From an uncultured bacterium (GTDB lineage: Bacteria > Fidelibacterota > UBA2242), in assembly GCA_964589175.1 (NCBI GenBank), contig CAZPRY010000015.1, forward strand, positions 18,530 to 82,529: a stretch of DNA of 64,000 nucleotides. Direction: 5' to 3'. The notes below the pieces were generated by a model, which searched no databases, had not been told where the DNA came from, and saw only the letters and a list, made by a program, of their open reading frames with translations. Made by a program: the position numbers and the translations under genes. Positions 6,208-55,674 of the stretch are shown here, piece by piece (position 1 is the first letter of the stretch; each line of letters starts with the position of its first letter).

Positions 6208-6279
6208 CGAGATTCCATCATATAGATATATCCACAGGTTTGGCACAAGAAATATTTTATAACTTGGAGGTTCATCCAA

Positions 6280-32860: not shown

Positions 32861-32945
32861 AGTATATCAACATAATGGCAATTATTATCAAAATGACCGT
32901 GGAGACATTAAATAAATTCAAATAATCAATCCAAGGAGCAATTAG

Positions 32946-34265
32946 ATGATAAAAGCAAATAATTCTGTTTTTACTGAAATAAGAGAATATATAAGTGGTA
33001 TTCCATTAATTGATACACATGAACATTATCTAGGGATTACTGAACCGGTAAAAAATATCTGGAATTTTATTATGTCGGGATATCACGACTCAGATATGCA
33101 ATCAGCATCGTTTGGTAATGAAATTTATTATAAAAATATATTTGATAATACATTGTCATTTGATGAACGGTATAGTGCTTTTGAAAAAATATATAAAAAA
33201 ATAAAAAATACTGCATATGTAAAAGCATTTGAAATAGGATTAAAGAGATGTTGGGATATAGATGAAATCAATCTATCAACAATAAAAGATCTTTGTACGA
33301 AATTATTATCAAGAGAACAAAATTTTTATAATGCTTTAATAGAAAAGCACAATATTTTAATTAAGATTGTAGATGTATGTGATGCAGATAAATTTGTTGA
33401 AATAATTAACGGAACAAATAAAAACTATTCTAAATATTGTAGATTTGCATTTCCACTTCCATCTTTCCATAACATACATTCTTGTCAAGATATTAAAAAA
33501 TTGGAAAAGTATAATGAAGGAATGATAATTAAATCGCTGGATGATTACATCGATAATTTTAGTGTTTTACTAAAAAAAGCAGTTGATTTTGGAATCGTAT
33601 GCCTTAAAGATCAGACCGCTTATAGACGGATAATTGATTATAATAATCCAAGTAAAACTGAAGCGGAAAGTATTTTTAATAAAATAATATCAAATCCAAG
33701 AGACATTTTTTCATCAAATGAAGTTCGACCTCTTGATGATTGGCTTTTTCATAATTTTATTAATCTTGCGAAACAGTACAAATTACCAATACAAATTCAT
33801 ACAGGCCATATGGCTGGAATAAGAAATGATATTGTAAAAGCAAATGCAGCTCATTTAATAAAAGTAATAGAACTGCACTCGGATGTAGCTTTTGATTTAT
33901 TTCATGGAAATTGGCCGTATATGGGTGAATATTTGTTTATTGGTAAGAATTATCCAAACGCTTATCTTGATTTATGTTGGGTACAAACGATTGATCCCTT
34001 GTATTCTATAGAATTAATGAAAAGAGCAATTGTAACAGTACCACATAACAAAATAATGATATTTGGTGGCGATACAAACAAAATTGAAAATACTATAGGT
34101 TACTTAGAACTTGCAAAAGATAATGTTGCTTATGCTTTAAGTGAAATGATTGAAATGGATTATTTATCAAAAAATGAAGCAGGACAAATAGCAGTAGATT
34201 GGTTTTTTAATAATCCTAATGAACTATTTAATTTGGGATTAAAAAAACTAGAAAGAAAAATCTAA
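32946..34265 (+). CDS. Amidohydrolase family protein (uronate-isomerase-like) no. 3, strongly AT-rich
   Basis: LIDTHEH, PIQIHTG, FDLFHG, NAYLD, IFGGD; the sample line 33121-33180 is 12/60 G+C. Confidence 0.85.
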   Translation: MIKANNSVFTEIREYISGIPLIDTHEHYLGITEPVKNIWNFIMSGYHDSDMQSASFGNEIYYKNIFDNTLSFDERYSAFEKIYKKIKNTAYVKAFEIGLKRCWDIDEINLSTIKDLCTKLLSREQNFYNALIEKHNILIKIVDVCDADKFVEIINGTNKNYSKYCRFAFPLPSFHNIHSCQDIKKLEKYNEGMIIKSLDDYIDNFSVLLKKAVDFGIVCLKDQTAYRRIIDYNNPSKTEAESIFNKIISNPRDIFSSNEVRPLDDWLFHNFINLAKQYKLPIQIHTGHMAGIRNDIVKANAAHLIKVIELHSDVAFDLFHGNWPYMGEYLFIGKNYPNAYLDLCWVQTIDPLYSIELMKRAIVTVPHNKIMIFGGDTNKIENTIGYLELAKDNVAYALSEMIEMDYLSKNEAGQIAVDWFFNNPNELFNLGLKKLERKI

Positions 34266-35941: not shown

Positions 35942-36014
35942 AATTAGAGCCAAAGCCCGAGTTACTATTTTAATGACGAGACAAAAAGAAATCTTTTAAG
36001 AAAGGGAGGAATAT

Positions 36015-43234: not shown

Positions 43235-45058
43235 ATGACAGTCTATTATTCTGCTAAAAGTAGAACCGCCAACCGCCCTCAAGTCTCAAAAACAACCATT
43301 GATACCATAGTCGTTGGAAAACGGGAAGTCTGTGAATCAATTGTTGACTCAATAAGTGGACATCTTGATCGGAATAAAACTCCCTGCTTTTTAGCACTCG
43401 ACGGTTATTTAGGTATTGAATGGATGAAGATAATCCGGGAATTGAGCGATATTTTAGAAGAAAAACAGATAGCGATCAAGACCCTGGATATAGAATCATG
43501 TTTTAAGAAGCCTCACGAAATAGATGAGATGATTCAGCGCTACCTGGAATGCGATCCTGATTTCGGGTACGTATTTGACGGTCAGCTAGAACAATTTTTC
43601 GATTCGATTAAGTTAAATGATTTGGAAAAGGAGTTATACAATCTCAGACTGATCAGCTTAAAAAATCCAAAGACGGCAGTAATATGTTACGGGTGCGGTG
43701 CAGATTTAGAGCGGCTTAAAGTCTTATTTGACCGGATAGTGTATTTTGACTTGACACGGGAGGAACTATTCAATCGTTCCGAGATAAATTCGATTTCCTG
43801 CCTGGGCGCTAAGGACGGTGACTGGCCGGTGCATGCAAATCTAAAAAGATTCTGCTATGTGGATTCTCAGGTGCTGGACAAACATAAAAGAAGAGCTCTC
43901 AAAGAAATGGATTGCTACGTAGATGCTAACAGCACGGATGAACTAAAAATCGTCCCGCGCAGCTCTTATGAGGAGATTTTATCTGATGTTGCCCAGGCGC
44001 CTATCATTATGAAACAGCTGTATTGCCCGGTCGTCTGGGGCGGCAACTGGCAAAAAGAATTGAAGAAACTTTCCAAATCAATCACGAACTCGGGACAGGG
44101 TTCCATCGTACCGACCGAGAACAGTATCGAAATAGTCCTGGATAAAATTTGTCTGGACGTCACCTTTCAAAATCTCCTCTGGCAGGAACCCATCAGGATA
44201 TTAGGCGACTACGCATTTAAAATAACTCAAGGTAAGTTCCCACTTTGCTATTATTACGATGACGAGATCGACGGAGGCCACATGGCGATCCAGGTTCATC
44301 CGAATGATAGTTATATTAGGAAAAATTTCAACGAAGCGATGCGGCAGGATGAAAGTTACTATATCGTGCATACCGGACCCGGCGCCAAAACCTTCCTGGG
44401 TCTTAAAGAAGATGCCGACATCGACCAGTTTCAAAGAGATGCCGTCATGAGTGAAAAGGAAAACGTAGCTATTGATTATGAGCGCTACGTCGACAGTATC
44501 GAAACCAAACCCGGAGATTTTCTCTTAATCCCGGCGGGTACGCTGCACGCTTCGGGTAGAAATCAGATGGTTATCGAGATCGACTGGATCATTGCCGCTC
44601 ACACGCCCGGATATACATTTCACATATACGATTATATGAGACCCGATCTGGACGGAACTTTCCGAACGATGCACATCAAGCACTCTTTCAATGTCCTGAA
44701 AGAGGAGCGCAGAAGCAGCTGGGTGAAGGCGAATCTGAAACAAACTCCCAGGTTAATCCGCGAAGGAGAAGGCTGGGCCGAGTTTGTCATCGGCAGCCGG
44801 GAGGACATGTTCTTAGAAGTTCGCCGGCTTGAATTTCAAAAAAAGATTCACGACGAGACAGATGGGAGAAAAATGTTTCATGCTTTGACGCTGGTCGAAG
44901 GCGAAAGCGTTATCATCCAGTCTCTCGAAAATCCCGAAAGACAATGTCATCTGAATTTTCCTGACACGCTTATTGTACCGGCCTGCCTCGGCAAATATAG
45001 CATCATCAACCTGGGAAAGAAACCCTGTAAAGTCGTTAAGGCCCTGGTGAGATCGTGA
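43235..45058 (+). CDS. manA: Class I mannose-6-phosphate isomerase, long Bacteroidetes-type (N-terminal extension + cupin)
   Basis: VVWGGNW, MAIQVHP, RQDESYY, LIPAGTLHASG, EI...YTFHIYDY.RPDLDG..R..HI.H. Confidence 0.75.
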   Translation: MTVYYSAKSRTANRPQVSKTTIDTIVVGKREVCESIVDSISGHLDRNKTPCFLALDGYLGIEWMKIIRELSDILEEKQIAIKTLDIESCFKKPHEIDEMIQRYLECDPDFGYVFDGQLEQFFDSIKLNDLEKELYNLRLISLKNPKTAVICYGCGADLERLKVLFDRIVYFDLTREELFNRSEINSISCLGAKDGDWPVHANLKRFCYVDSQVLDKHKRRALKEMDCYVDANSTDELKIVPRSSYEEILSDVAQAPIIMKQLYCPVVWGGNWQKELKKLSKSITNSGQGSIVPTENSIEIVLDKICLDVTFQNLLWQEPIRILGDYAFKITQGKFPLCYYYDDEIDGGHMAIQVHPNDSYIRKNFNEAMRQDESYYIVHTGPGAKTFLGLKEDADIDQFQRDAVMSEKENVAIDYERYVDSIETKPGDFLLIPAGTLHASGRNQMVIEIDWIIAAHTPGYTFHIYDYMRPDLDGTFRTMHIKHSFNVLKEERRSSWVKANLKQTPRLIREGEGWAEFVIGSREDMFLEVRRLEFQKKIHDETDGRKMFHALTLVEGESVIIQSLENPERQCHLNFPDTLIVPACLGKYSIINLGKKPCKVVKALVRS

Positions 45059-45969
45059 GGCTTACAATTGAAAATGATTTTTATGTGACGCTGGATGTCG
45101 GCGGAAGTTTTGTAAAGGCCGCCCTGTTAAGCAGCGAATATGAAGTAGTCGCAGGCTCGTTTTCAAATACGCCGATCGATACAAGCGGGCCCTCAAAACA
45201 GGTAATCGATACGATAATTGCTGTGATTGCGGAAAAATTCCGGATAGTGAAAGCATTCGGGGAAGTCAAGGCAATCGGGCTCTGTTTCCCGGAATTCTCC
45301 GACTACAGCAAGGGTACAATCGCGATGATGAAGGATAAGTTTCAACAATGCTGCGGAATCGTGCTGAGGGACGAAATCATCAACGGATTGAGATTATCCC
45401 CTGATTTTCAGATTGTATTCGAAGAGGATTCGCTCGCCTTTATGAGAGGAGCGCTAAGACGGGGGAAGGCTGAAGCCTATGACCGGATCATCGGCCTTAC
45501 GCTTGGTACGGGCCTCGGGTCGGCCTTCATGGAAAAGGGAAAAATAATACGGAACGCTCCGGGCGTCCCGCCGGATGGCGAACTTGGCTGTCTTCCGTTA
45601 AAAGGTGGAATCATTGAAGACATCATCTCCATCAAAGGCATACTCCGGATTTACAGGGGAATTAGCAGAAAGCCGGAGAATGATGTAAAAACTATCGCTC
45701 TTCAGGCGCAAAAAGGGGATGCCGCTGCAATGCGAAGCTTCGACGAATTCGGAAAAACGATGGGGCAAATACTCAAAAAATACGTCGAAGACTTCAGGGC
45801 TGAGTGCATCATTTTGGGCGGCCAGATTGCCAAAAGCTTTGAACTTTTCGCGACGCCGTTGAGGAGCGAGTTGTCGGGCGTCGTCTCGCTTCAGGAAATC
45901 GTTCCGGCTGCATCGATTAATTTCAGTTCATTTTACGGTTTACTCAGCATGATAAAAGACGTACGATAA
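45055..45969 (+). CDS. ROK family sugar kinase
   Basis: LDVGGSFVKA, EDSLAF..G, LTLGTGLGSAF, GELG, IILGGQIA; GTGA overlap with the upstream gene. Confidence 0.9.
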   Translation: MRLTIENDFYVTLDVGGSFVKAALLSSEYEVVAGSFSNTPIDTSGPSKQVIDTIIAVIAEKFRIVKAFGEVKAIGLCFPEFSDYSKGTIAMMKDKFQQCCGIVLRDEIINGLRLSPDFQIVFEEDSLAFMRGALRRGKAEAYDRIIGLTLGTGLGSAFMEKGKIIRNAPGVPPDGELGCLPLKGGIIEDIISIKGILRIYRGISRKPENDVKTIALQAQKGDAAAMRSFDEFGKTMGQILKKYVEDFRAECIILGGQIAKSFELFATPLRSELSGVVSLQEIVPAASINFSSFYGLLSMIKDVR

Positions 45970-46020
45970 GGTACGCCCAAAGAGAACAGTGTTCATTTCA
46001 GTATCCTTTGGCGGCGGTTT

Positions 46021-46154
46021 CAGCTAACGTTCGGAACTATATGCAGTACGGGATTTCGGAGCAGTTTCCTATCGAGTTACACGATACTACTTGCGAGAAC
46101 CGCATTACGAATACAGATGCAACCCGTATTGACATATAGTTTTTGTTATGCCCA
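46021..46154 (-). mobile_element. attC-like integron recombination site (attC-2)
   Basis: Minus strand: TGGGCATAAC (inverse core, 46154-46145) ... GTTAGCTG (core, 46028-46021). Inner arms AACTATATG-CAGTACGGG (46035-52) and CCCGTATTGACATATAGTT (46123-41) pair with one extra base and one mismatch; about 130 bp; begins about 11 bp after the stop of 46165-46686. Confidence 0.75.
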
Positions 46155-46164
46155 GGCTTTTTTT

Positions 46165-46686
46165 TCAATGCCATCTATAATCTGTATCTTTTAAAGGGTC
46201 AATATTTTTAAAATCATTAAAATCTTTGTATTTGTTATTCTCCCACCAATCATAATAGGCTTTTGCAGCAATTGCATGAGATACACTATCTGTGACTAAA
46301 TCTAATTCATCAGAATCTCGGAGTGCCAATATTGGATTTTGAGAAGGAAATCTCATTATCAAGTATTCGCTATTAATTGATAATGCTCGAATCGATTCAA
46401 TAGTCCATAAAACATACATCCCTAATTTGCATTCAGGTGCATATAATGATGAAATAGGATTATGAGGAAAATTAGTAATAATTTGAGTTTCATTTCTATA
46501 CTGGAGCAAGACAGGGATGTCACTATAAGTAAATGACGGAAGATTTAATGAATCATATTGACTTGATTTTAATAACTCGATATAAGTCGGGACATCAAGA
46601 TTAATTGTTTCATCATTGTCTTTTTTATCACAACCTATCAAGCCGATCAAAGAAGTCAGAAAGATTAAAAATTTCAACGTTTTCAT
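46165..46686 (-). CDS. Lipoprotein, DUF4943-like; single-gene cassette
   Basis: Lipobox LIG-C, RBS AAGGAG; P.F...DIP.LL...FP.NPISS....C.LG...LWTIESIR pattern recalled from Bacteroidetes DUF4943 proteins. Confidence 0.6.
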   Translation of the reverse strand: MKTLKFLIFLTSLIGLIGCDKKDNDETINLDVPTYIELLKSSQYDSLNLPSFTYSDIPVLLQYRNETQIITNFPHNPISSLYAPECKLGMYVLWTIESIRALSINSEYLIMRFPSQNPILALRDSDELDLVTDSVSHAIAAKAYYDWWENNKYKDFNDFKNIDPLKDTDYRWH

Positions 46687-46757
46687 ATTTTACTCCTTAC
46701 GATTACAAAGCCTTTATAGGATGCTCAAAATGTCAATTGGTTGCGTTTTTTAAGCTT

Positions 46758-46892
46758 GGGCATAACGGTTGGCGGTATGAAATCGTTGGGGATTGCGGGC
46801 TACTTTCCCGTCCACGACGACTGAAGTTTGAGCGGTGCAGAATGCTTGAATTACCACTGAAACCCTTATTGCATATAGCCTTTGTTACCTGC
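46758..46892 (-). mobile_element. attC-like integron recombination site (attC-1)
   Basis: Minus strand: GCAGGTAAC (46892-46884) ... GTTATGCCC (46766-46758), 135 bp, with imperfect inner arms (GGCTATATGCAAT vs ATTTCATACCGCC). Confidence 0.7.
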
Positions 46893-46965
46893 TGGTTTTA
46901 ATTCTTTTTAATCTAAAAGTAGGGGAGTTCATTTATCTCATTTAATAGTAATACTATTTTCCACA

Positions 46966-48198
46966 TTACAACATATTATGCCGCTTAATTATATCCGTTG
47001 TTACAACATCAATGTTGCCATTAGTCACTGTAATATAACCATCAATGGTACCAAAAATACCGTCAACATCCCCGTAATCAGTTCTTAAAAACATTATTGA
47101 CTCATTATTTCTCTGATTCATTAAATCTCTGATTGCTCTCCATTCCAAACCACACCACTCTTTTACATTATATTTACTGCATAGACAAACAACTATTAAA
47201 TCAGACTCATCATGATAAAGTTTTTGTAAATGTGTATCTAAATTTGGTCTTGCAAATTCTGCACTATGAAATTCATCATATAGAATTTCATCTTTAGGAA
47301 AATGTGTTGTTAATTTGTTAGCAATCCCTTTAATAATTTTCCTGTATTCGCCGGGAAACGACAATGCAACTCTAAATCGTTTTTGTTTATTTTTCATTTT
47401 TGTATTTAATAAATTATCTATTTGATTTGCAATGTTTTTTACATTTGATTGCAAGTTTCTAAAACTCTTTGCTGATTCTTCGTATTTTATTTGACAATTA
47501 CCAGCCGTCTCACAGTTCTTTGTATCTATAAGTAGTTGTGAAAAAACTCTTTGTAAATTGTTTTTTTGTTCTTCTATTTTAGATTTTAATGATGATATTT
47601 CTCTTTTATCTTTCAGATTCAAATTGCCATCTCTACTCTTTTTATTCAAGACATCTAACAATTTATCGCATAAAGCAGTTAATGTGTCTTTTTCTTTGTT
47701 AGCATTATCTAAAATTTTACCTCTCTCTTTTATTCTTTCAAATCGTTTGAGTTCGTCTTCAACATTAATTTTAACACCCATTTCCGCTTGAAGAGGCTCT
47801 GAGGTTTCAACATCAAATACTCTAAAACAATGAGTGTATAAAGTTTTAATACCATGCCCAAAACAATCTTTGTCTTCTGCCAAGTTGTGCATATGTTGCC
47901 CAGTAGTAATAATAGTTTCGCAATCTTCTATCGCATCTTCTTTTTCATATTGAGCAACAAATTCATCGACAAAATCTTTGCCTAAAACTTGTTCTTTTTT
48001 TCTATCATATACTGTTTCACATTTGCCTTCCCATAATTTTATTTTGCGATTTTTAGCACATGCCCAAATTGTAAAAGGGGCTTCGTCTAAAAATGCTAAC
48101 TTCATTCTGTCTTCATAACTGACTGCCCTCTGACTGATTAAATTTATTATGTATTCAATCAGTTCTTTTTTACTCATTTTATTATAGTCTATATCCAT
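46966..48198 (-). CDS. PAS domain - coiled coil - TIR domain protein
   Basis: N-terminal PAS-like segment (FLDEAPFTIWAC...LWEGKCETVYDRKKEQVLGKDF), heptad-rich middle, C-terminal TIR (VALSFPGE, LYDEF, LDTHLQKLY, VVCLCSKYNVKEWCGLEW with the conserved Glu). Confidence 0.8.
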   Translation of the reverse strand: MDIDYNKMSKKELIEYIINLISQRAVSYEDRMKLAFLDEAPFTIWACAKNRKIKLWEGKCETVYDRKKEQVLGKDFVDEFVAQYEKEDAIEDCETIITTGQHMHNLAEDKDCFGHGIKTLYTHCFRVFDVETSEPLQAEMGVKINVEDELKRFERIKERGKILDNANKEKDTLTALCDKLLDVLNKKSRDGNLNLKDKREISSLKSKIEEQKNNLQRVFSQLLIDTKNCETAGNCQIKYEESAKSFRNLQSNVKNIANQIDNLLNTKMKNKQKRFRVALSFPGEYRKIIKGIANKLTTHFPKDEILYDEFHSAEFARPNLDTHLQKLYHDESDLIVVCLCSKYNVKEWCGLEWRAIRDLMNQRNNESIMFLRTDYGDVDGIFGTIDGYITVTNGNIDVVTTDIIKRHNML

Positions 48199-48217
48199 AA
48201 TAAATAAACTTTATACG

Positions 48218-49000
48218 TTACTCTTGAATTGTACGCCCCGATTCTCTCATAAATGTATAATCAACACAGTTAAAACCACCGTCAATTATATAGGTTGTAC
48301 CTGTTATAAAGGATGCTTTTTCGGAAGCCAAGAAACTCACTAATTCTGCTATTTCCTTCGGTTCTGCAAACCTGCCTAATGGAGTGAGTTGTGGGGCAAT
48401 TTTCCATGAAATTTCAGGTATCATATTGACATCTGTTTTAACCCAGCCGGGTGCTATTGCAACAACCCTGATATGCTTTTCATCATAACCAAAATTGATA
48501 GCCAAACTTTGCGTAGCATTTATTAACGCTGCCTTACTTGCCGCATAGGACATACTCGAAAACGAGCCTTTCAGCCCATCTGTACTTGCAATATTGATAA
48601 TTACTCCATTATCAATGAGCGAGTTTTTTAATCCTGTACTTATAGCGAAAGGTGCTGTTACATTTACGGAAAAAATGGTATCCCATATTGCCATGTCGTA
48701 ATTGTTGTAATCTTCGCCATCAGGGAAAGTACCAGCATTATTGACGATTAAACTGAAGGTTTCCTTTTTCATTTCGTCAATAAAAGCCATAAGCAGTTCT
48801 CTGTCGGTAAAATCGGCTTTGTGCATTTTGTACTTATTCGGATACAATTTTGCGAAATCTTTTTCACACAGATTTTCCGAATTATAAACTGCGTGAACGA
48901 AATAGCCTTCCGAAAGTAAATGCTTACAGATTGCAAAACCAATTCCGGTTGTTCTCGAAACACCGGTAACTAATGCTGTTTTTTTTACTTTTTGACTCAT
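48218..49000 (-). CDS. Short-chain dehydrogenase/reductase (FabG-like)
   Basis: VTGVSRTTGIG, VNNAG, INIAS, YAASK, APGW, GRFAEP.EIA..V.FLAS. Confidence 0.93.
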   Translation of the reverse strand: MSQKVKKTALVTGVSRTTGIGFAICKHLLSEGYFVHAVYNSENLCEKDFAKLYPNKYKMHKADFTDRELLMAFIDEMKKETFSLIVNNAGTFPDGEDYNNYDMAIWDTIFSVNVTAPFAISTGLKNSLIDNGVIINIASTDGLKGSFSSMSYAASKAALINATQSLAINFGYDEKHIRVVAIAPGWVKTDVNMIPEISWKIAPQLTPLGRFAEPKEIAELVSFLASEKASFITGTTYIIDGGFNCVDYTFMRESGRTIQE

Positions 49001-49007
49001 AATATAA

Positions 49008-50156
49008 TCATTTAAAATTATTTACAGGAACTTGTTGCAATATACAATGAACACCACCACCGCCTAAAAGTAATTCGCGTGACGGTATTGGTATAATTTT
49101 TCTGCCTTTAAAAACAGAGGCAAATATTTTGTATGCGTTTTCGTCATATTCCAATGTTATTTTGTCTTCGGCAGAAGCAAACGAAGGAATTAGAACTGCA
49201 CCATTACAAACATAAGAGTTCATGTATGAAGCTGGAAGTCTATCGCCAGGCAATCTTGGAATTGCATATTCAGAAGAATCTACTCCGATATGTTCTTCTT
49301 CTGTTGTACACTGAACAGGAGGTTGCGAAACTTTAATCACATTATATTTCTCGCCAAAAGCATTTTTAGCATTCACTAAAATTATGTATGCCTCAAGCGA
49401 AATATCATATTGAGGGTCTGTTTCATCATCGCACCAATTCATAAGAATTGTTTTTGAATCTGCAAAACAGCACATATTGTCAATATGTCCGTTGTTTTCC
49501 TCTATATATAAACCACGTTCCAACCAAATGAAATTTGTTACACCCAAATATTTGGTAAAAATTACTTCAATTTCTTGCAAAGAAAGATTGTTATTTCGCT
49601 TTAAAATACACTCTTTTGTTGCAATTAATGTTCCTTTGCCATCCACTTGAATTGCTCCTCCCTCCAAAACCAAAGGACAGCGGTAACGGTTAGCTTTCTC
49701 AATTTCCAAAACTTTTCTTGCAACCATATCATCTAATTTCCATGGAAAATAGGAGCCTGTTAATTCCCACGGATTTATATTGCTATTGCGCCCAATTCCG
49801 CCCCATGCATTAAAGTGCCAATCAACACCTCGTAGTTCTTTTTTATCATTTACGACAAAAGTTGGTCCTGTATCTCTAATCCAAGCATCGTCATACGAAA
49901 TTTCAACAACTCTGATACTTGGGTTTAATCTATTTCGTGAATTTTCATATTGGGATTGCGTAACTCCCACTACAACATCTTCATAATTAGCAATAGCATT
50001 CGCTATTTCAGCAAATATTTTTTGTGCGGGTTTGGCACCCAATCGCCAAATATCATTTCTTTCGGGCCACAGCATCCAAGTCGCTGAATGTTGTTCAAAC
50101 TCGGCGGGCATAAAGAAACCTTCAACATGAGGATATTTATCAATAATAGTCATCAT
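49008..50156 (-). CDS. aguA: Agmatine deiminase / peptidyl-arginine deiminase family protein
   Basis: MPAEFE.H..TWMLWP, DAWIRDTGP, LEGG, GHIDN, ASYMN, GGGVHCILQQVP with the catalytic Cys. Confidence 0.9.
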   Translation of the reverse strand: MMTIIDKYPHVEGFFMPAEFEQHSATWMLWPERNDIWRLGAKPAQKIFAEIANAIANYEDVVVGVTQSQYENSRNRLNPSIRVVEISYDDAWIRDTGPTFVVNDKKELRGVDWHFNAWGGIGRNSNINPWELTGSYFPWKLDDMVARKVLEIEKANRYRCPLVLEGGAIQVDGKGTLIATKECILKRNNNLSLQEIEVIFTKYLGVTNFIWLERGLYIEENNGHIDNMCCFADSKTILMNWCDDETDPQYDISLEAYIILVNAKNAFGEKYNVIKVSQPPVQCTTEEEHIGVDSSEYAIPRLPGDRLPASYMNSYVCNGAVLIPSFASAEDKITLEYDENAYKIFASVFKGRKIIPIPSRELLLGGGGVHCILQQVPVNNFK

Positions 50157-50659
50157 AAAATATTGTTTTTAATTTTTTCTTTCAAATATGTTGCAAAATA
50201 CTCAAAATATTTTTCTTGTATTTCTTTTAATTTCCAATCTCTTCCGGTTATAACTTTCCGACAATTAGTTGCCCCACAAGTACATCCAAAGGAATAATCT
50301 TCATTATCTAAAAAGGCGTAATCAATTGTAAGTTCGTCATCAATTTCAATGTCAAGTATGGCAACAAATGTAATTTCCCCTCTAATTCCACAGTTAGGAT
50401 TACATGAATGATTTACATATAGTTTAATCTTATCTTCTTCTTCAGCATTAGTGGCACCTAAATAATATGTATCATCAATAGGGTGATAACTATTGATAAC
50501 TCCAGAAGAAAATATTTGCTCTCTTTTAAGAATGTGTCCACCTTTTATAAACACTATTTCCCCTTTTTGAAAAGACTCTTTTGCAAACATTCCTTTTTTA
50601 TGAGTGCTACTTTCGCGAATTTCAACTTTGTCCGATAATATTGATTTTACCATATCCAA
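50153..50659 (-). CDS. SET-domain methyltransferase with post-SET zinc motif
   Basis: KGMFAK, NHSCNPN, ELTIDY, CTCGATNCR. Confidence 0.93.
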   Translation of the reverse strand: MDMVKSILSDKVEIRESSTHKKGMFAKESFQKGEIVFIKGGHILKREQIFSSGVINSYHPIDDTYYLGATNAEEEDKIKLYVNHSCNPNCGIRGEITFVAILDIEIDDELTIDYAFLDNEDYSFGCTCGATNCRKVITGRDWKLKEIQEKYFEYFATYLKEKIKNNIL

Positions 50660-50667
50660 AATAAATT

Positions 50668-51786
50668 TTATGGGTGCATATAATCAAATTTTTCAGACGC
50701 TCCAAGTTCTTTATACAAAGTCCGTATTGCTTTGCATGCAATCGGTATTTGTCCATCTAATTTACCTGTTTCGTTCATTACTTCACCAAGACAATATCCG
50801 CTACAATGCAATTTGGCAACACAAGTTTTACAATGAGCGATATTATCTACATTGCGGCTTTGCAATGCTTTAATCTTTTCTGGATAATATTCAAATTGCT
50901 TTGTCTGTTCGTCCCATTTGCCATAAATAAAACAATCCATGTGATTTGCATTTGCTCCAAGTACCACCAAATCACAGGCAGAAACATAACCATCGGGCGT
51001 TAAATGCGGAACAGGGGTACAGGAACGACAATTTATTTTTGCTTCGCCGTCGAAATTACAAGTCAGAAAACTACCGTAAAACACGCCTGTCTGTTTAGCG
51101 TATCGGTGTGCCTCAACAAAGTTTTGAATGTATGTGCCCATGTCAAAATGAAAGTTTGCAAGTTTTTCCTTGTCATCGCAAACGGGAATTTTATCCACAG
51201 CAGGAAATTCGGGGTCTGTCCAAATATATTTTATTCCTAAACTGTTAAAATAATCAACCATTTCTTTTTGTCGGCGTATGTTTAAGTCGGTCATCGTAAC
51301 CCTTACACCTACCATTAAATTATGCTTATCCCGATTGACAAACAACCATTTTATATTTTCTTCGATTTTGGGTGCGGAAGGTTTTTTGTGTGGGAAAGGT
51401 CGTTGTGTATTTTGAATATCGGGCGTTCCGTCAAACGACACCCATACGATATTTATGTTGTCCAAAATCCATTTCAGAACTCTCGGACTGAAAGCGCCGT
51501 TTGTTTGAAGTTCTGCCGTAACTTCGTTTCCGCCCTTTTGTCGGGCATAGTCGGTTATTTGCCGCATTAGGTCAAATTCTTGCGTTGGCTCACCAGGTCC
51601 GTAAAAACGGATATGCCTGCTTTTATTTTTAGCAAAATATTCATCTATCCCCGCCTTTGCAATTTCCAAAGGCAGAGACTTTTCTTCAAGTTCGCCTCTT
51701 TCCTTGCTGTTATAGCAATATATACAACGCAAATTGCATTTCGTTGTCAGAAAGAATGAAATCATTTGTTTATTGCAATGCGGCAT
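50668..51786 (-). CDS. Radical SAM protein with SPASM domain
   Basis: CNLRCIYC, GPGEPT, QTNG, VSFDG; C-terminal CRSC...ACD...CKTCVAKLHCSGYC...C auxiliary-cluster cysteines. Confidence 0.93.
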   Translation of the reverse strand: MPHCNKQMISFFLTTKCNLRCIYCYNSKERGELEEKSLPLEIAKAGIDEYFAKNKSRHIRFYGPGEPTQEFDLMRQITDYARQKGGNEVTAELQTNGAFSPRVLKWILDNINIVWVSFDGTPDIQNTQRPFPHKKPSAPKIEENIKWLFVNRDKHNLMVGVRVTMTDLNIRRQKEMVDYFNSLGIKYIWTDPEFPAVDKIPVCDDKEKLANFHFDMGTYIQNFVEAHRYAKQTGVFYGSFLTCNFDGEAKINCRSCTPVPHLTPDGYVSACDLVVLGANANHMDCFIYGKWDEQTKQFEYYPEKIKALQSRNVDNIAHCKTCVAKLHCSGYCLGEVMNETGKLDGQIPIACKAIRTLYKELGASEKFDYMHP

Positions 51787-51910
51787 AATTTTATCGTTTT
51801 TTCATAATATTTCTTCATTGGAGTCGTTATATATCCCTGTTACTTCCCAATTTTTTAGATAATAAAAACATTTTATTTCTTTTATATTGCTTTGGTTCTT
51901 TGTTAAACTT

Positions 51911-51928
51911 GCAGGTAACCATTGGCTA
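51911..51928 (-). mobile_element. Cassette 5' core site / possible attI-like or secondary insertion site
   Basis: Minus strand TAGCCAATG-GTTACCTGC. The 9-mer GTTACCTGC is the exact complement of the inverse core of attC-1; no partner inverse core is seen within 140 bp upstream. Confidence 0.55.
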
Positions 51929-51939
51929 AACGCATTTCG

Positions 51940-52019
51940 TACCCGCCTGACCCCCGACTGGTCGGGGCGGGCAGGTATCCTTCCAATTTGGCACGATATA
52001 CGTCCCGAAATTTCGGGAC
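51940..52019. repeat. Two GC-rich palindromic elements (REP-like)
   Basis: CCCCGAC-tg-GTCGGGG inside TACCCGCCTGA...GGGCAGGTA (51940-51977) and the perfect 18-bp palindrome GTCCCGAAATTTCGGGAC (52002-52019). Confidence 0.6.
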
Positions 52020-52211
52020 ATTTATTTTTCTTATGGATGATGCCTTGCCGCATCGATGGGATTGACAATCTTTCCCAATTTTTGTTTGCTGAAAGGGGTC
52101 TATATTTCAGTCGCATTTCCTGCCGAACTGTCTCGAAAAAGGCAAACTGTAAAACGCTTACGTCCAAGCCCTGGCTTTTCACTGGGTCAACATCCTTGTA
52201 CATTTGTCTGA

Positions 52212-52241
52212 ACTTTACGCATAAAAAACGAATAATGTCAA
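52212..52241 (-). promoter_or_regulatory. Sigma-70-type promoter facing the cassette array (Pc-like)
   Basis: Minus strand TTGACA (52241-36), 18 nt, TAAAGT (52217-12). Confidence 0.5.
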
Positions 52242-52290
52242 TCAAAATCATTCTTTTTACGGACAATTCCGCATTTTCTTCAATTTCCTG

Positions 52291-52319
52291 TTGACAATTT
52301 CGCGCCCAGCCCTTATTAT
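52291..52319 (+). promoter_or_regulatory. Near-consensus sigma-70 promoter, divergent from the previous one
   Basis: TTGACA (52291-96), 17 nt, TATTAT (52314-19). Confidence 0.7.
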
Positions 52320-52520
52320 CTTAATGTACACATAAACGCATTGCAGTTCGCCCTGGCGGCTGCCGCTTTTTGTCATTGCTTTGACAGCTTCCCTTATGGG
52401 CCTTATAGACCCGACTATAGAATCCGGCGGCGCATAGGCGTAATCCGCCGGTAAATCTCTGGGAGTAAGTGTAACATGGTCGGCCGGAGAGCCCGGCCCG
52501 CCGCAACCAAGGAGGATATC

Positions 52521-53207
52521 ATGCCCGGCAATTTCAAGTTCTCTTACAAAGTGGTTGAAATGCTCATCGGTGCGCGCGCCCTGTGCGACATTTTCGGGGA
52601 GAACAGGGAACCGCTCGTCGCCGCACGCAGCACCTGGGTAGACCCGTTCATCGATAATTACCGCACCCGCATCGACACCGCCATGGAGCAATATCTGGGG
52701 CACGACTTCCGGAAACGGCTGCGTGACGTCTCCCTGGAAGTCCGCACTATCATGGGCCTCGTCCTTCCCAAACTCGCGCTCTTCAAGAGCCAGATCGAAT
52801 ACGATTATAGCGGCGCAGCCCTGAAAAACCTGCTGGATTCCCTGGGATATTCCCGTTTCTACAAATCCGTACAGAACAAGAACCAGGAAGCGACAATCCA
52901 GATGCTCTACCAGTTCAGACAGAATATGACCGATGAACTGAAGGCCGAACTGGTCGCCAAAGGCATGGCCGCCGACCTGATCGATGGTATTATCAGCCAG
53001 ATCGATGCGCTCAAAGAGGCCGATACTCTCCAGGAAAGCCTGAAAGCCTCCGGCAGCGGATTCCCCCGGGAAGCAGTGGACGAATTCAACGCTATTTACA
53101 AGGAGGCCATCGGCATCTGTAAAATCGCCCGCCAGGTCTTCCGGGCCAATCCCGAAAAACGGGCCCTTTTCACCTTTTCCCGGCTGGTCAAGCGGATGAG
53201 CGCCTGA
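52521..53207 (+). CDS. Hypothetical all-alpha protein
   Basis: Strong RBS AAGGAGG 5 nt before ATG 52521; GC-rich, coding-like codon usage; no recognisable catalytic motif and no tyrosine-recombinase R-H-R-Y pattern. Confidence 0.8.
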   Translation: MPGNFKFSYKVVEMLIGARALCDIFGENREPLVAARSTWVDPFIDNYRTRIDTAMEQYLGHDFRKRLRDVSLEVRTIMGLVLPKLALFKSQIEYDYSGAALKNLLDSLGYSRFYKSVQNKNQEATIQMLYQFRQNMTDELKAELVAKGMAADLIDGIISQIDALKEADTLQESLKASGSGFPREAVDEFNAIYKEAIGICKIARQVFRANPEKRALFTFSRLVKRMSA

Positions 53208-53300
53208 ACCGTTAGCCTTTATGTGGGCCGGACACCGGTTTCCGGCCAAAGGAAGGACATTCCGGGACCCGCTTACGAATTTTGCTAAACGGGATAGGGA

Positions 53301-53495
53301 TTCCGGCGACTCAGATTCTCATTCCGGAACTTAGATATGTTTTCCGGTAACTTGGCTGTGGATTCCGGAATATGGAAACGGATTTCGGTAACTTAGATAT
53401 GCTTTCCGGCAACCTGGATAGCGATTCCGGAACATGGAAATGCTTTCCGGCAATTCAGGTGTGGATTCCGAAACCCGGACGCCCATTTCGAAAGC
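53301..53495. repeat. Degenerate tandem repeat, 20-21 bp period, about 9-10 units, core TTCCGG(N)AAC
   Basis: Core G positions at 53305, 53326, 53346, 53367, 53387, 53408, 53429, 53449, 53470; linkers partly recur (TTAGATATG twice, ATGGAAA twice, GTGGA twice). Confidence 0.8.
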
Positions 53496-53557
53496 AAAGA
53501 AGCCGGTTCCGGGCATCGCAGACTGAAGTTTAAAAACCGGACCAAAGTGAATTTCGA

Positions 53558-53700
53558 TCAATTTTTGTACAAATTAGCCTTCCTGTAATTGTATCTAAAC
53601 TCCAGTTCTTTGAGGTACGAATAAAAGTGATTTCTGCTAACTTCATGACAACTTCTTAAATGGTCTAAACACATTGATAATGAGCAACTTTCGGTAATGC
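53558..53700 (-). pseudogene. IS1595-family (ISXO2-like) transposase C-terminal relic
   Basis: HEVSRNHFYSYLKELEFRYNYR matches the family's C-terminal HGVS..H...YL.E..FRYN.R motif; the upstream part is degenerate. Confidence 0.7.
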
Positions 53701-54560
53701 TCAAAATGTCAGGGTTGGTGCAGAAATTGAGTGTTTTGAATAGCAAGGTACCGGAAAGCGGGTGACTATTAGGGGGAATAATAAATGGGATTACGTAGAG
53801 AGCATATATAGCAAAGCAGTTCTTTACAAGGAATCTAAGGAGTGCCCTTTAGCATATCGAATCTTTTTAGAAGACTATTTTTTCGTTCTATAGTATAGTC
53901 TTAAATGCGTTTGCACATATAAAGATTCAATGGCTGAGCCTATCAAGGTAATTGCTGATCCTTTAGCAAAGCGCAGGTGTCCCTGCTGCATGAGCAATAG
54001 ATGGAAATGGATTGAGACTGGTCATCGTCATTACTTTCGATTTTCTGGACCACGGCGTATAAGGCGATCTTGATACCATCCTGGTACGATTAATGTAGCA
54101 AAATCGCATGTTTTCTGATAGCCCCTGAATGTCATCCCGGCAGATAAACAATTTTAGGCCGATCGAGGTTTTTTCCGAATGGCAATCGTCAATAATAATC
54201 AGCCAATAAAAGAGAAAAATCCCAATCTTATCGGGTACAATTGCGACAAGTATTCTTATTAATATCGTTTAAAAATAGTATTTGCGAGTGCTTGGAGCAG
54301 TGCTATTAGTGTATCTGCAGGTTGCGATTGATAGGCTAATATGATATCTGTCTTATTCGCTGTGACCGTAGTTGCTGAACATATCCCGAGGAACATAGGT
54401 TGCGGAATATTGCTTAAAAAATTATCGTCTTATTGCCGAGCCAGAAGACAAACCAGATGAATTGCTTAACATGTTGTAATATATGGGGAAATAGCATTTG
54501 ATTCTATTAGATCCAGACCTTTTAAGACGGGAAAAACCAGAAATAAAATGCCATTTGTAC

Positions 54561-54589
54561 TTGACATTTGGAAAAATTATGTATAAAAT
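54561..54589 (+). promoter_or_regulatory. Sigma-70 promoter of the LacI-family gene
   Basis: TTGACA (54561-66), 17 nt, TAAAAT (54584-89). Confidence 0.7.
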
Positions 54590-54627
54590 GCAATCGTTTG
54601 CAGGAAACGTTTGCGGTAAACGTTTGT
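54589..54627. promoter_or_regulatory. Three tandem LacI-type operators
   Basis: TGCAATCGTTTGCA, GGAAACGTTTGC, GTAAACGTTTGT; central CG at 54595, 54608 and 54621 (13-bp spacing). Confidence 0.75.
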
Positions 54628-54663
54628 ACTGATTCGAATACTCGGAATAAAAGTGTCGATAAA

Positions 54664-55674
54664 ATGAAAAGTTCGCAGGTAACCATTAAAGATATTGCCG
54701 AAAAGCTGGGTATCTCAGCTTCGACGGTATCAAGAGCGTTGCGAGACCATCCCGATATCAGCCTTTCTACGAAAAAAATCGTCCACTCAGTCGCGGAAGA
54801 GCTGGATTATCATCCGGATTCTATCGCCCAGAGCTTAAAGCACCGAAAAACGAACCTGATTGGCGTCATCGTTCCCGAAATCAAACATAATTTTTTCTCG
54901 GCCGCGATCAGCGGAATTGAAGATGTTGCCTATAGCGCCGGTTACGCGATCATCGTGTCTCAATCAAACGAAAGTTATGAAAGAGAGTGTCTGAATATCA
55001 GTGCTTTAATATCGAATCGCGTTGCCGGATTACTCATCTCAATCTCAGAAACAACCACAAACGACGATCAATTCCGGCTTTTGGAACGTCAGGGAATCCC
55101 CTTTGTTTTTTTCGATCGGGTTTGCGAAAATATTGATTCTAGCAAAGTTGTTGTGGATGATTTCGGTGGAGCGTTTAAGGCCGTTGAGTACCTGATACTG
55201 TCAGGATACAAAAGAATCGCTCATTTCGCAGGCCCGAAACATTTATCCATCAGTCAACAACGGCTTGAAGGTTATCGGGCCGCTCTGAAAAAACACAAGA
55301 TTCCGTTCGATGGCCGGCTTGTCATCTACAGTGGGTTGAACGAAGAAGACGGGTACACCAGCTTTTCCCAACTTCTTGAGTTAGATCAACTGCCGGATGC
55401 CCTTTTCGCCGTTAACGATCCGGTTGCCATCGGGGCATTTGAAAATATCAGAAAACACGGCTTGAAAATCCCTGAAAATATTGCACTCGTTGGTTTTTCC
55501 AATAATCCCGTTTCCGAATTAATTGAACCTGCCCTGACCACCATAGAACAGTCCCCTTATCAGGTAGGGAAAATAGCGGCTCAGTTATTGATCGAACAGA
55601 TCAGCAATCCTGAAAATTTTATACCAAGGAAAGAGATACTAAGAACCGAACTGATTATTCGTGATTCTACGTAA
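54664..55674 (+). CDS. LacI family transcriptional regulator
   Basis: VTIKDIAEKLGISASTVSRAL HTH, IGVIVPE, FVFFDR, RIAHFAG, PDALFAVND, LVGFS, LTTIEQ, LIIRDS. Start set at ATG 54664. Confidence 0.96.
   Translation: MKSSQVTIKDIAEKLGISASTVSRALRDHPDISLSTKKIVHSVAEELDYHPDSIAQSLKHRKTNLIGVIVPEIKHNFFSAAISGIEDVAYSAGYAIIVSQSNESYERECLNISALISNRVAGLLISISETTTNDDQFRLLERQGIPFVFFDRVCENIDSSKVVVDDFGGAFKAVEYLILSGYKRIAHFAGPKHLSISQQRLEGYRAALKKHKIPFDGRLVIYSGLNEEDGYTSFSQLLELDQLPDALFAVNDPVAIGAFENIRKHGLKIPENIALVGFSNNPVSELIEPALTTIEQSPYQVGKIAAQLLIEQISNPENFIPRKEILRTELIIRDST

What the first reader, a model, noticed from the sequence alone, without database searches (positions are those of the whole stretch)
46966..48198. 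PAS-coiled coil-TIR fusion: a ligand-gated TIR effector
Seen: the N-terminus resembles the PAS input region of a histidine kinase (DYNKMSKKELIEYI then PAS), a long heptad linker follows, and the output is a TIR with the WCxxE glutamate instead of a kinase. Established: TIR NADases activate on oligomerisation, and PAS domains bind small ligands and transmit signals through coiled coils. Inference: a one-component NAD+-depleting or signal-generating switch.
Basis: partly seen in the sequence, partly recalled or inferred. Interest (0 to 1): 0.68.

Follow-up and report, generated by a model that had tools for sequence, protein, structure and literature searches.

The report
PAS-gated TIR effector in five-gene cassette
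This is a real gene that joins a small-molecule-sensor (PAS) domain through a coiled coil to a TIR domain of the kind that destroys NAD+; it always travels with four metabolic enzymes in a mobile cassette found in bacterial defence islands, so it is probably the killing arm of an undescribed anti-virus system.

Summary
Window 46966-48198 (-) encodes a 410-aa protein with four parts: an N-terminal helix, a PAS fold (res 41-145), a heptad coiled coil (146-268) and a TIR domain (272-410). The TIR domain keeps the W-x3-E glutamate (E352).

The "one-component switch" reading is only partly right. The gene is the last of a tight five-gene operon in a low-GC island: radical-SAM/SPASM, SET methyltransferase, agmatine-deiminase homologue, SDR, PAS-CC-TIR.

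All 41 non-redundant related PAS-CC loci I recovered carry these enzymes, across Bacteroidia, Chlorobiales, Clostridia and Anaerolineales, and despite gene-order changes. The TIR is a minority output, seen in the window and 6 of the 41 other loci. In 25 loci the PAS-CC protein has no TIR and is followed by a small membrane protein instead, which is an effector swap. Neighbouring genes include Gabija, pAgo, CBASS, AbiE and SoFic.

Best reading (about 0.45): this is an undescribed abortive-infection-type system. The enzymes make or process an agmatine-related small molecule, the PAS domain senses it, and the coiled coil switches the TIR NADase.

No NADase activity, ligand or phage protection was tested. 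I found no published description.

The parts
46966..48198 (-). PAS-coiled-coil-TIR protein, 410 aa (the finding)
   Evidence: ORF. Full-length relatives at 36-73% identity. AF2 model with pLDDT 78.
48079..48198 (-). N-terminal helices (res 1-40, conserved MSKKELIEYI...RAxxYEDRMKL) ahead of the PAS core
   Evidence: Conserved across TIR-type and TM-type relatives. AF2 gives helices at 10-23 and 28-39, with low confidence for res 20-39.
47764..48078 (-). PAS domain (res 41-145)
   Evidence: Secondary-structure order of two strands, four helices, three strands at pLDDT 86-92. Foldseek hits to PAS domains at TMt 0.76-0.85. Homologues pass Pfam PAS. Invariant residues in alignment A6 include W45, W56, C60, Y64, N105, T122, C124 and E139.
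47395..47763 (-). Heptad coiled-coil linker (res 146-268), with a C229-x5-C235 loop between helices 2 and 3
   Evidence: AF2 helices at 146-188, 195-227 and 232-268. Period-3.5 power is 68 against 11 +/- 11 in shuffles. C235 is invariant among the 8 full-length relatives, but the C-x5-C motif is present in only 12 of 46 long PAS-CC representatives.
46969..47385 (-). TIR domain (res 272-410) with the motifs RFRVALSFPGEYR and EWCGLEWRAIR
   Evidence: Pfam TIR_2 at 27.8 bits. TIR-only model with pLDDT 87 matches MyD88, AbTir, RPS4, SPARTA and TIR-STING. Both motifs are nearly invariant in 30 diverse homologues.
47143..47145 (-). Codon of E352, the putative catalytic glutamate (W348-x3-E352)
   Evidence: Aligns with the Glu of RPS4 WCVRELEKI in the profile-versus-PDB alignment. 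Invariant in the family. Codon position verified.
48218..49000 (-). Short-chain dehydrogenase/reductase (260 aa), cassette gene 4
   Evidence: Pfam adh_short_C2 at 1e-43. Co-occurs with PAS-CC in all loci long enough to show it.
49008..50156 (-). Agmatine-deiminase homologue (382 aa), cassette gene 3
   Evidence: NCBIfam TIGR03380 agmatine deiminase at 451.8 bits, above the 381.8 cut-off. E 1e-104 to the solved plant agmatine iminohydrolase 1vkp. The C-terminal GGGGVHCILQQ motif holds the position of the family's catalytic Cys.
50153..50659 (-). SET-domain methyltransferase (about 166 aa; the likely start is the ATG at 50653), cassette gene 2
   Evidence: Pfam SET at 4e-14. The NHSCNPNC and ELTIDY motifs and post-SET cysteines are invariant. 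Nearest solved structures are the MLL1 SET domain and, more weakly, BurB. Fused to the deiminase in L083-L085.
50668..51786 (-). Radical-SAM/SPASM enzyme (372 aa, no RRE domain), cassette gene 1
   Evidence: Pfam Radical_SAM; CX3CX2C at C17/C21/C24 plus conserved C-terminal cysteines. Far below every NCBIfam cut-off (best is PapB, 99 against 340). Nearest solved structure is CteB (5wgg), residues 99-427.
46100..51900 (.). Low-GC island: the only minus-strand block in a window of plus-strand glycan-use genes
   Evidence: GC is 0.343 against 0.450 for the rest of the window. All long ORFs outside it are on the plus strand. In DNA runs the cassette contigs are identical to the window while the flanks differ by SNPs.

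Best explanation
The gene encodes the sensor-effector of an undescribed five-gene, horizontally mobile cassette that most likely works as an abortive-infection-type defence module.

Shown: the protein is a PAS domain, a heptad coiled coil and a TIR domain with the catalytic-type glutamate. It is operonic with a radical-SAM/SPASM enzyme, a SET methyltransferase, a close homologue of agmatine deiminase and an SDR. This gene set is conserved across phyla. The TIR alternates with small membrane proteins as the output. The cassettes sit among known defence systems.

Inferred: the four enzymes make or process a small molecule, probably built on the 4-aminobutyl-guanidine/urea skeleton of agmatine or N-carbamoylputrescine. 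The aminobutyl amine of that skeleton mimics a lysine side chain, which would suit a SET enzyme. The PAS domain binds this molecule, or registers its loss. The signal passes along the dimeric coiled coil, as in PAS-histidine kinases, and changes how the C-terminal TIR domains associate. The assembled TIRs hydrolyse NAD+, and the infected cell stops growing or dies. In relatives without a TIR, the same PAS-CC module would act on a 2-3-TM or a helical 1-TM partner that damages the membrane.
For: Anatomy.

Operon: gaps of 19 nt or less, or an overlap, between the five genes. All five are covered by metatranscriptome contigs while the adjacent sugar genes have none.

Conservation: the same five genes occur at 36-88% identity in Chlorobiales and other metagenome loci, with SET moved in L009. 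All 41 non-redundant PAS-CC loci have cassette enzymes alongside, and 30 have all four.

Effector swap: 6 loci are TIR-fused and 25 have a small TM protein as the next gene, including loci with the same gene order as the window (L081, L090, L093). A third form is a short PAS-CC plus a helical 1-TM protein (L073, L074).

Small-molecule chemistry:
- The deiminase passes the agmatine-deiminase equivalog model and matches solved agmatine deiminases at E 1e-104.
- The deiminase and SET are fused in L083-85.
- GNAT is the commonest flanking family.
- The rSAM lacks an RRE domain.
- The same rSAM+SDR pair elsewhere sits next to two other families of 2-TM proteins.
- A 38%-identical rSAM lies in a small-molecule-type cluster on a C. 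perfringens plasmid.

Defence context: the 125 proteins flanking 14 cassettes include GajA/GajB, pAgo with a SIR2 partner, CBASS cyclase/E1-E2/CapH, SoFic, AbiEii, an nSTAND3 nuclease, integrases and HTH regulators.

Mobility: low-GC island. The cassette is identical between co-existing strains whose flanks differ.

TIR subfamily: it is fused to many other sensor or NTPase modules, for example AAA_16.
Against: - No experiment: NADase activity, ligand binding, toxicity and phage protection are all untested.
- No PADLOC model hits any cassette protein except weak viperin-model hits to the rSAM core. No PHROG hit.
- Nothing in the cassette is an obvious infection sensor, so how the signal would be tied to infection is unknown.
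- The SET domain is closest to protein-lysine methyltransferases, and the rSAM to a peptide thioether maturase. This also fits protein modification.
- In the window itself no other defence gene flanks the island.
- The AF2 inter-domain geometry is unreliable (pTM 0.40).
- I did not test the defence-gene count in the flanks against a background rate.
Confidence: 0.45

Rival explanations
1. Protein-modification system. The SET enzyme methylates a lysine, the deiminase converts a guanidino group and the rSAM/SPASM enzyme cross-links or oxidises a cysteine, on the PAS-CC protein itself (for example the C229-x5-C235 loop) or on a phage or host protein. The TIR fires according to that modification state.
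For: The SET profile is closest to histone-lysine methyltransferases such as MLL1. The rSAM is closest to the thioether maturases CteB and PapB. C235 is invariant among the 8 full-length relatives. The coiled coil is rich in Lys and Arg.
Against: The deiminase is an equivalog-level match to free-agmatine deiminases. The rSAM has no RRE peptide-recognition domain, and no precursor-peptide gene sits in a conserved position. The C-x5-C motif is present in only 12 of 46 long PAS-CC representatives and 2 of 53 short ones. The rSAM+SDR pair also occurs with unrelated 2-TM proteins that have no conserved Cys motif.
Confidence: 0.15
2. Metabolic guard, or addiction module. The enzymes constitutively make a SAM-dependent metabolite that keeps the PAS-CC-TIR off. 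When infection (for example phage SAM-degrading enzymes or host shut-off) or loss of the cassette stops synthesis, the unliganded PAS releases the TIR. This has the same parts as the best explanation but the opposite sign of regulation.
For: Two of the four enzymes need SAM. No dedicated infection sensor is visible in the cassette. The cassette is transcribed at a low level in situ without known infection.
Against: There is no direct evidence for either sign of regulation. Known ligand-gated TIR effectors (TIR-SAVED, TIR-STING, PycTIR; from the literature, not tested here) are switched on by their ligand, not off.
Confidence: 0.15
3. Specialised-metabolite gene cluster (antibiotic, osmolyte or polyamine derivative) in which PAS-CC-TIR is a regulator or a self-protection or quality-control factor. 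On this reading it is not an anti-phage system.
For: All four enzymes are of kinds typical of biosynthetic clusters. A 38%-identical rSAM sits in an MFS-SDR-AsnB-adenylase-rSAM-rSAM cluster on a C. perfringens plasmid.
Against: The cassette has no exporter and no scaffold-building enzyme. The variable position is filled by cell-killing-type modules (TIR, small TM proteins), not by DNA-binding outputs. The neighbours are rich in defence and mobile-element genes.
Confidence: 0.12
4. Stand-alone one-component switch. The PAS senses an environmental or cellular cue (O2, redox, light, heme, flavin) and the neighbouring enzymes are functionally unrelated.
For: The PAS is most similar to the input PAS of PAS-GAF-histidine kinases. 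Structurally it resembles LOV/FixL-type PAS-coiled-coil sensors.
Against: Across several phyla and at least three gene orders the PAS-CC gene is never found without the enzymes where the contig allows a look. The family is rare: 19 clusters in the word-indexed search of 5.8 billion, and 200 representatives at E<=0.001 in the exhaustive search of 1.84 billion. It is confined to this cassette.
Confidence: 0.05

Closest known systems
Ligand-gated TIR effectors of signalling defence systems: TIR-SAVED and TIR-STING (CBASS), PycTIR (Pycsar)
   Same: A small-molecule-sensor domain is fused to a TIR with the catalytic glutamate, and TM effectors are interchangeable with it in sister operons. The TIR model matches TIR-STING (9lmq) and other NADase TIRs.
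   Different: The sensor here is a PAS domain followed by a roughly 120-residue coiled coil, not SAVED, STING or a cNMP-binding domain. The TIR is C-terminal. No nucleotide cyclase or CD-NTase is in the operon. The partner enzymes are rSAM, SET, deiminase and SDR, so any ligand would not be a cyclic nucleotide.
Thoeris (ThsB TIR + ThsA or Macro-TM effector)
   Same: A TIR protein in a defence-island operon. Type II Thoeris also uses TM effectors.
   Different: No ThsA (SIR2-SLOG) or Macro partner is present, and there is no PADLOC ThsB hit. In Thoeris the TIR makes the signal; here it sits in the effector position, the one that alternates with TM proteins.
PAS-coiled-coil sensor histidine kinases (FixL, YF1 / 4gcz, PAS-GAF-HK)
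   Same: An N-terminal helix, PAS domain and long coiled coil lead to the output. These are the best Foldseek hits and the nearest sequence outgroup (32-38% identity over the PAS).
   Different: There is no DHp or HATPase domain. The output is a TIR, or in relatives more helix plus a TM partner.
Prokaryotic viperins (pVip)
   Same: A radical-SAM enzyme inside a defence-type locus. Weak hits to the PADLOC pVip models (43 bits).
   Different: The NCBIfam viperin model scores 36.9 against a cut-off of 180. This enzyme has a SPASM C-terminal domain and is nearest to CteB and PapB.
Agmatine deiminase AguA (polyamine synthesis / AgDI pathway)
   Same: Gene 3 passes the equivalog model and matches solved AguA structures at E 1e-104, with the C-terminal Cys motif.
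   Different: The cassette has no AguB, putrescine carbamoyltransferase, carbamate kinase or antiporter. Instead the gene is co-inherited with, and sometimes fused to, a SET methyltransferase.

Membership tests
PAS domain superfamily | Five-stranded antiparallel sheet flanked by helices (PAS fold) | tested here: met
   AF2 gives strands at 42-47, 52-58, 103-107, 120-128 and 135-143 with four helices between them, at pLDDT 86-92. Foldseek TMt is 0.76-0.85 to ARNT PAS-B, PpANR PAS and others.
PAS domain superfamily | Sequence match to a curated PAS model above its cut-off | tested here: inconclusive
   This protein scores 12.5 bits against a cut-off of 22.6. Homologues of the same family pass: 29.3 bits, and precomputed PF00989 on P0005 and P0123-P0129.
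PAS domain superfamily | Binds a ligand or cofactor in the core pocket | not testable with these tools
TIR-domain NADases | TIR (flavodoxin-like) fold | tested here: met
   The TIR-only model (pLDDT 87, pTM 0.83) gives 36 straight TIR or TIR-like (SEFIR) hits, including AbTir 7uxu at TMt 0.73.
TIR-domain NADases | Match to Pfam TIR/TIR_2 above the cut-off | tested here: inconclusive
   27.8 bits against a gathering score of 28 for this protein. Nearly all of the 120 listed homologues carry PF13676.
TIR-domain NADases | Catalytic glutamate in the W-x-x-x-E motif of helix C | tested here: met
   E352 of W348-C-G-L-E352 aligns with the Glu of RPS4 WCVRE. It is invariant in alignments A1 and A2. 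That this Glu is catalytic in plant and bacterial TIRs comes from published knowledge, not from a test here.
TIR-domain NADases | NAD+ cleavage that depends on self-association | not testable with these tools
   This needs enzyme assays and structures of the oligomer.
Thoeris | ThsB-type TIR together with ThsA (SIR2/SLOG) or a Macro-TM effector | tested here: not met
   No such partner appears in the window or in related loci. No PADLOC Thoeris hit.
CBASS / Pycsar | CD-NTase or pyrimidine cyclase in the operon | tested here: not met
   The four partner genes are rSAM, SET, PAD_porph and SDR.
Prokaryotic viperin | Match to the viperin family model above its cut-off | tested here: not met
   NF038283 scores 36.9 against 180.
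RiPP maturation cluster (rSAM/SPASM) | RRE domain or partner, plus an adjacent precursor-peptide gene | tested here: not met
   The alignment to CteB starts at its residue 99, after the RRE. There is no intergenic room inside the operon and no conserved small ORF upstream.
Agmatine deiminase (AguA, TIGR03380) | Equivalog model above its cut-off, plus the catalytic Cys motif | tested here: met
   451.8 bits against 381.8. GGGGVHCILQQ aligns with GGNIHCITQQ of 1vkp. The substrate itself was not tested.
Sensor histidine kinase | DHp and HATPase_c output domains | tested here: not met
   Neither domain is present. Only the PAS and coiled-coil input resembles these kinases.

The most novel reading that the evidence does not exclude
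The cassette is a new class of bacterial immune signalling. Its messenger is not a nucleotide but a polyamine-type metabolite: an agmatine or N-carbamoylputrescine derivative tailored by a SET methyltransferase, a radical-SAM enzyme and an SDR. A PAS domain reads it and drives either a TIR NADase or a membrane effector. Sister cassettes that use the same rSAM+SDR core with other 2-TM receptor-effectors would then be further branches of the same signalling family.
Probability: 0.25. Interest if true: 0.9.

Novelty: new variant of a known kind. Interest (0 to 1): 0.7.

Why it matters
All well-understood signalling defence systems (CBASS, Pycsar, Thoeris, type III CRISPR) use nucleotide-derived messengers. 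A system whose enzymes are a radical-SAM protein, a SET methyltransferase, an agmatine-deiminase homologue and an SDR would bring new chemistry into bacterial immunity. It would also give the SET domain a small-molecule or defence role in bacteria, and add PAS to the list of immune sensor domains.

The fusion is a convenient experimental handle. TIR NADase activity is easy to read out, so the protein could serve as a biosensor to fish out the unknown ligand.

The cassette is rare, is found mostly in anaerobes (gut, rumen, termite, anoxic lake) and does not appear to be in the defence catalogues I could query.

Tried and rejected
- Sequence search of the whole protein and of the TIR segment against PDB found nothing useful. 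Only a 30-sequence profile reached TIR structures, and weakly.
- PADLOC, PHROGs and NCBIfam gave no family for the protein.
- Seven literature searches on the gene combination, on PAS-TIR, and on rSAM, SDR or agmatine deiminase in phage defence found no description. The eLife 2020 conflict-systems paper does not mention it.
- A Cys-x5-Cys loop as the rSAM target looked attractive, but the motif is not conserved in the c4 proteins nor in most PAS-CC relatives.
- The soluble domains of the alternative 2-TM partners (c4/c6, c9/c13) are not PAS-like (hhalign probability below 1%) and match nothing in Pfam or PDB.
- No tRNA gene, Rfam RNA or flanking direct repeat marks the island borders.
- The promoter and terminator scans were no better than shuffled sequence.
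- The rSAM has no relative in the phage collection.
- A 3.9-kb "joint" in the DNA runs rests on only 21 letters, so I disregarded it.
Full report
THE OBJECT

The coordinates given are exactly those of a 410-codon ORF on the minus strand. It lies in a block of six minus-strand genes (46165-51786) inside a window that otherwise carries only plus-strand genes. Those other genes encode glycan-use functions: TonB-dependent receptors, GH38, ROK kinase, a LacI regulator and T9SS-sorted proteins, which points to a Bacteroidota/FCB-group host. The block has 34% G+C against 45% for the rest of the window. The sequence comes from lake-water metagenomes. Metatranscriptome contigs from the same lake cover every gene of the block at low depth, while the adjacent sugar genes have none.

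CHECKING THE THREE PARTS

PAS. The Pfam PAS hit on this protein alone is not significant (E 0.16), so I tested the claim by structure.
- An AlphaFold2 model built on eight full-length relatives (mean pLDDT 78) gives residues 41-145 the PAS order of two strands, four helices and three strands, at pLDDT 86-92.
- Foldseek against the PDB returns almost only PAS proteins. Isolated PAS domains align at TMt 0.76-0.85 and rmsd 2.0-2.7 A. The very best hits are the PAS-coiled-coil histidine kinase YF1 and its relatives.
- Relatives of the protein pass the Pfam PAS gathering score.
- In an exhaustive HMMER search of 1.84 billion representatives, the nearest proteins outside the family are PAS-GAF-histidine kinases whose N-terminal PAS is 32-38% identical.

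Linker. AF2 predicts three long helices at 146-188, 195-227 and 232-268. Their hydrophobic periodicity at 3.5 residues is in phase over the whole stretch. The power is 68, against 11 +/- 11 in shuffles, and only 8 at period 3.6. That is the signature of a coiled coil.

TIR. The C-terminal 140 residues score 27.8 bits on TIR_2, with a cut-off of 28. They share 50-60% identity with hundreds of TIR_2 proteins. Modelled alone they reach pLDDT 87 and match MyD88, AbTir, RPS4, SPARTA, TIR-STING, SpbK and SARM1. E352 in W348-C-G-L-E352 aligns with the glutamate of RPS4 WCVRE. By the numbering in that alignment this is E88, the residue known from the literature to be catalytic in TIR NADases. It is invariant in the family.

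THE CONTEXT CHANGES THE INTERPRETATION

The gene is the last of five tightly packed genes, with gaps of 19 nt or less, or a 4-nt overlap:
- a radical-SAM/SPASM enzyme without an RRE domain;
- a SET-domain methyltransferase with intact NHSCxPN and ELxxDY motifs;
- a protein that passes the NCBIfam equivalog model for agmatine deiminase and matches solved agmatine deiminases at E 1e-104;
- a classical SDR;
- the PAS-CC-TIR protein.

The same five genes accompany every full-length relative whose contig is long enough. These relatives are 36-73% identical. In the most distant one, SET has moved to the other side of the TIR gene. One Spirochaetia protein shares only the last helix plus the TIR and sits in a different context.

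WIDER SAMPLING

I scanned one genome per species with the rSAM (61 loci) and the metagenome collection with the PAS region (25 loci). I then mapped the cassette proteins onto all ORFs.
- Of 41 non-redundant loci with a PAS-CC gene, all have cassette enzymes beside it and 30 have all four. The others are mostly truncated contigs.
- Only 6 of these, plus the window, carry the TIR.
- In 25 loci the PAS-CC protein is about 400 aa with a longer helical tail and no TIR, and the next gene encodes a 125-155-aa protein with two or three predicted TM helices. This holds both in Clostridia-type loci (order rSAM, PAS-CC, TM, SDR, deiminase, SET) and in loci with the window's own gene order (L081, L090, L093).
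- A third form has a 255-277-aa PAS-CC followed by a helical protein with one C-terminal TM helix.
- In L083-L085 the deiminase and SET are fused into one protein.
- Among the top 150 exhaustive-search representatives, 5 are TIR fusions, about 100 are PAS-CC without a TIR and 16 are histidine kinases.

The TIR is thus one of several interchangeable cell-damaging outputs attached to a constant PAS-CC module. That module in turn is tied to the four enzymes.

THE rSAM BEYOND THIS CASSETTE

In about three quarters of the 61 genome loci (47 of 61; only 14 have PAS-CC) the rSAM has no PAS-CC gene. It then usually has its own SDR, sometimes SET or a GNAT, and one of two further families of proteins with two N-terminal TM helices and an unknown soluble domain. 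Families c4 and c6 are homologous to each other, as are c9 and c13. None is PAS-like or matches Pfam or PDB. A 38%-identical rSAM sits in a small-molecule-type cluster on a Clostridium perfringens plasmid: MFS transporter, SDR, AsnB, adenylating enzyme and two rSAMs. This pattern is a constant enzyme core, tailoring enzymes that vary together with the receptor type, and TM- or TIR-bearing receptors. It is the pattern seen in small-molecule signalling defence systems.

NEIGHBOURHOODS

The Chlorobiales locus is flanked by AbiEi/AbiEii, an nSTAND3 protein with a nuclease head, Fic/SoFic and HTH genes. Over 14 cassettes, the 125 flanking proteins include GajA and GajB, a long pAgo with SIR2-type partners, a CBASS cyclase with E1-E2 and CapH, SoFic, mad2, RmrA, integrases, a T4SS coupling protein and many small HTH regulators. 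GNAT acetyltransferases are the most frequent family. I did not compute a background rate, so this evidence is qualitative.

In the window itself the island has no other recognisable defence gene. In DNA runs from the lake, the cassette contigs are identical to the window, while the flanking genes show 2-3% differences and, in one run, about twice the depth. There are also variant junctions at the island edge. This fits a recently transferred accessory element.

MECHANISM

Shown: the domain anatomy, the conserved catalytic-type residue, the operon, the co-inheritance with four apparently intact enzymes, the effector alternation, and the mobile and defence-rich context.

Inferred: the enzymes make or process a small molecule related to agmatine or N-carbamoylputrescine. 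Four observations support this.
- The deiminase is close to true agmatine deiminases.
- The aminobutyl amine of these compounds is chemically a lysine side chain, the natural substrate shape for a SET enzyme. BurB appeared among the SET matches; from my own knowledge of the literature, not checked here, BurB is a SET enzyme that acts on a free amino acid.
- The deiminase-SET fusion ties those two steps together.
- GNATs, the family that includes polyamine acetyltransferases, are frequent add-ons.

The PAS domain would sense this compound and the coiled coil would transmit the change, as in PAS kinases. The TIR domains would then be brought into, or released from, the association they need for NAD+ hydrolysis, and the cell would stop growing or die.

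Whether the ligand switches the TIR on (CBASS-like) or keeps it off (a guard on SAM-dependent metabolism) cannot be decided from sequence. Neither can what couples synthesis to infection. I put about 0.45 on this overall picture. The rest is divided among the guard variant, a protein-modification system, a metabolite cluster and the stand-alone switch.

COMPARISON WITH KNOWN SYSTEMS

The protein works like the ligand-gated TIR effectors TIR-SAVED, TIR-STING and PycTIR, but it is not a member of CBASS, Pycsar or Thoeris. There is no cyclase and no ThsA, and no PADLOC model hits. The rSAM is not a viperin. The input half is built like a PAS histidine kinase without the kinase.

Seven full-text searches found no paper describing this gene combination or a PAS-TIR protein. 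The library is incomplete, so this does not prove absence.

I rate the fusion itself as a new variant of a known kind, a sensor-TIR effector. The cassette may be something more novel.

Noticed in passing
window 52400-53420 (+ strand ORF 52476-53207) and 53321-53474: A roughly 1-kb stretch just upstream of the cassette has the highest metatranscriptome contig depth in the region (6-11, against 2-5 on the cassette). It holds a 243-aa ORF with no hit in Pfam, NCBIfam, PADLOC or PHROGs. It is followed by a 21-nt tandem array of 7.5 copies with consensus ATTCCGGAACTTAGATATGG. One DNA run shows a 42-nt length variant in the array.
   Followed up: partly
window 46165-46686 (-): A DUF4943 lipoprotein gene (E 7e-42) lies in the same low-GC, minus-strand island directly downstream of the TIR gene. 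It is not found next to the cassette in any related locus, so it is probably a passenger.
   Followed up: partly
L013, L017, L019-L035, L046-L054 and others (genome loci): The same radical-SAM family, usually with its own SDR, also sits next to two other families of proteins with two N-terminal TM helices and unknown soluble domains. Families c4 and c6 are homologous (hhalign 96%), as are c9 and c13 (97.7%). No Pfam or PDB match. These look like sister systems with different receptor-effectors.
   Followed up: partly
L083:~5400-7000, L084, L085: The agmatine-deiminase homologue and the SET methyltransferase are fused into one 520-aa ORF. This gene-fusion argument suggests the two act on the same substrate.
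   Followed up: no
L001:11224-11661, L015:6694-7131, L074:11298-11729, L009:5380-5811: A GNAT acetyltransferase gene often follows the cassette, and in L001 its start overlaps the TIR gene's stop. GNAT is the most frequent Pfam family among the 125 flanking proteins (6 members). The window lacks it.
   Followed up: no
window 47491-47511 (res C229-x5-C235); same motif in P0002-P0005, P0007 and many Clostridia-type PAS-CC proteins: A Cys-x5-Cys loop lies between the second and third coiled-coil helices. C235 is invariant among the 8 full-length relatives, but the motif is present in only 12 of 46 long and 2 of 53 short PAS-CC representatives. Its role (metal site, disulfide or modification site) is unknown.
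   Followed up: partly
L011:1994-3268 (Spirochaetia, GCA_026002105.1): P0007 has the same last helix plus TIR (71% identity in the TIR) but a different, non-PAS N-terminal half. It sits beside an unannotated 624-aa protein and has none of the four enzymes. The helix-TIR unit therefore moves between sensors.
   Followed up: no
L100 (Clostridium perfringens plasmid NZ_CP102303.1, 63230-75433): A 38%-identical radical-SAM gene lies in a cluster of MFS transporter, SDR, AsnB-type amidotransferase, AMP-binding enzyme and a second radical-SAM gene. This looks like a small-molecule biosynthetic cluster on a mobilizable plasmid.
   Followed up: no
window 43500-55500 in DNA runs X1, X8, X10, X11: Cassette contigs are identical to the window (0 differences over 3582 + 1406 nt). 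The flanking genes carry 2-3% SNPs and have about twice the depth in X1. Loose ends at 46827/46887, 50209/50226 and 51229 point to variant junctions or mosaic relatives of the cassette in the same lake.
   Followed up: partly
window 32001-36000: A second low-GC stretch (0.33-0.36) carries an amidohydrolase-family gene and a T9SS-sorted protein. There is no sign of a link to the cassette.
   Followed up: partly
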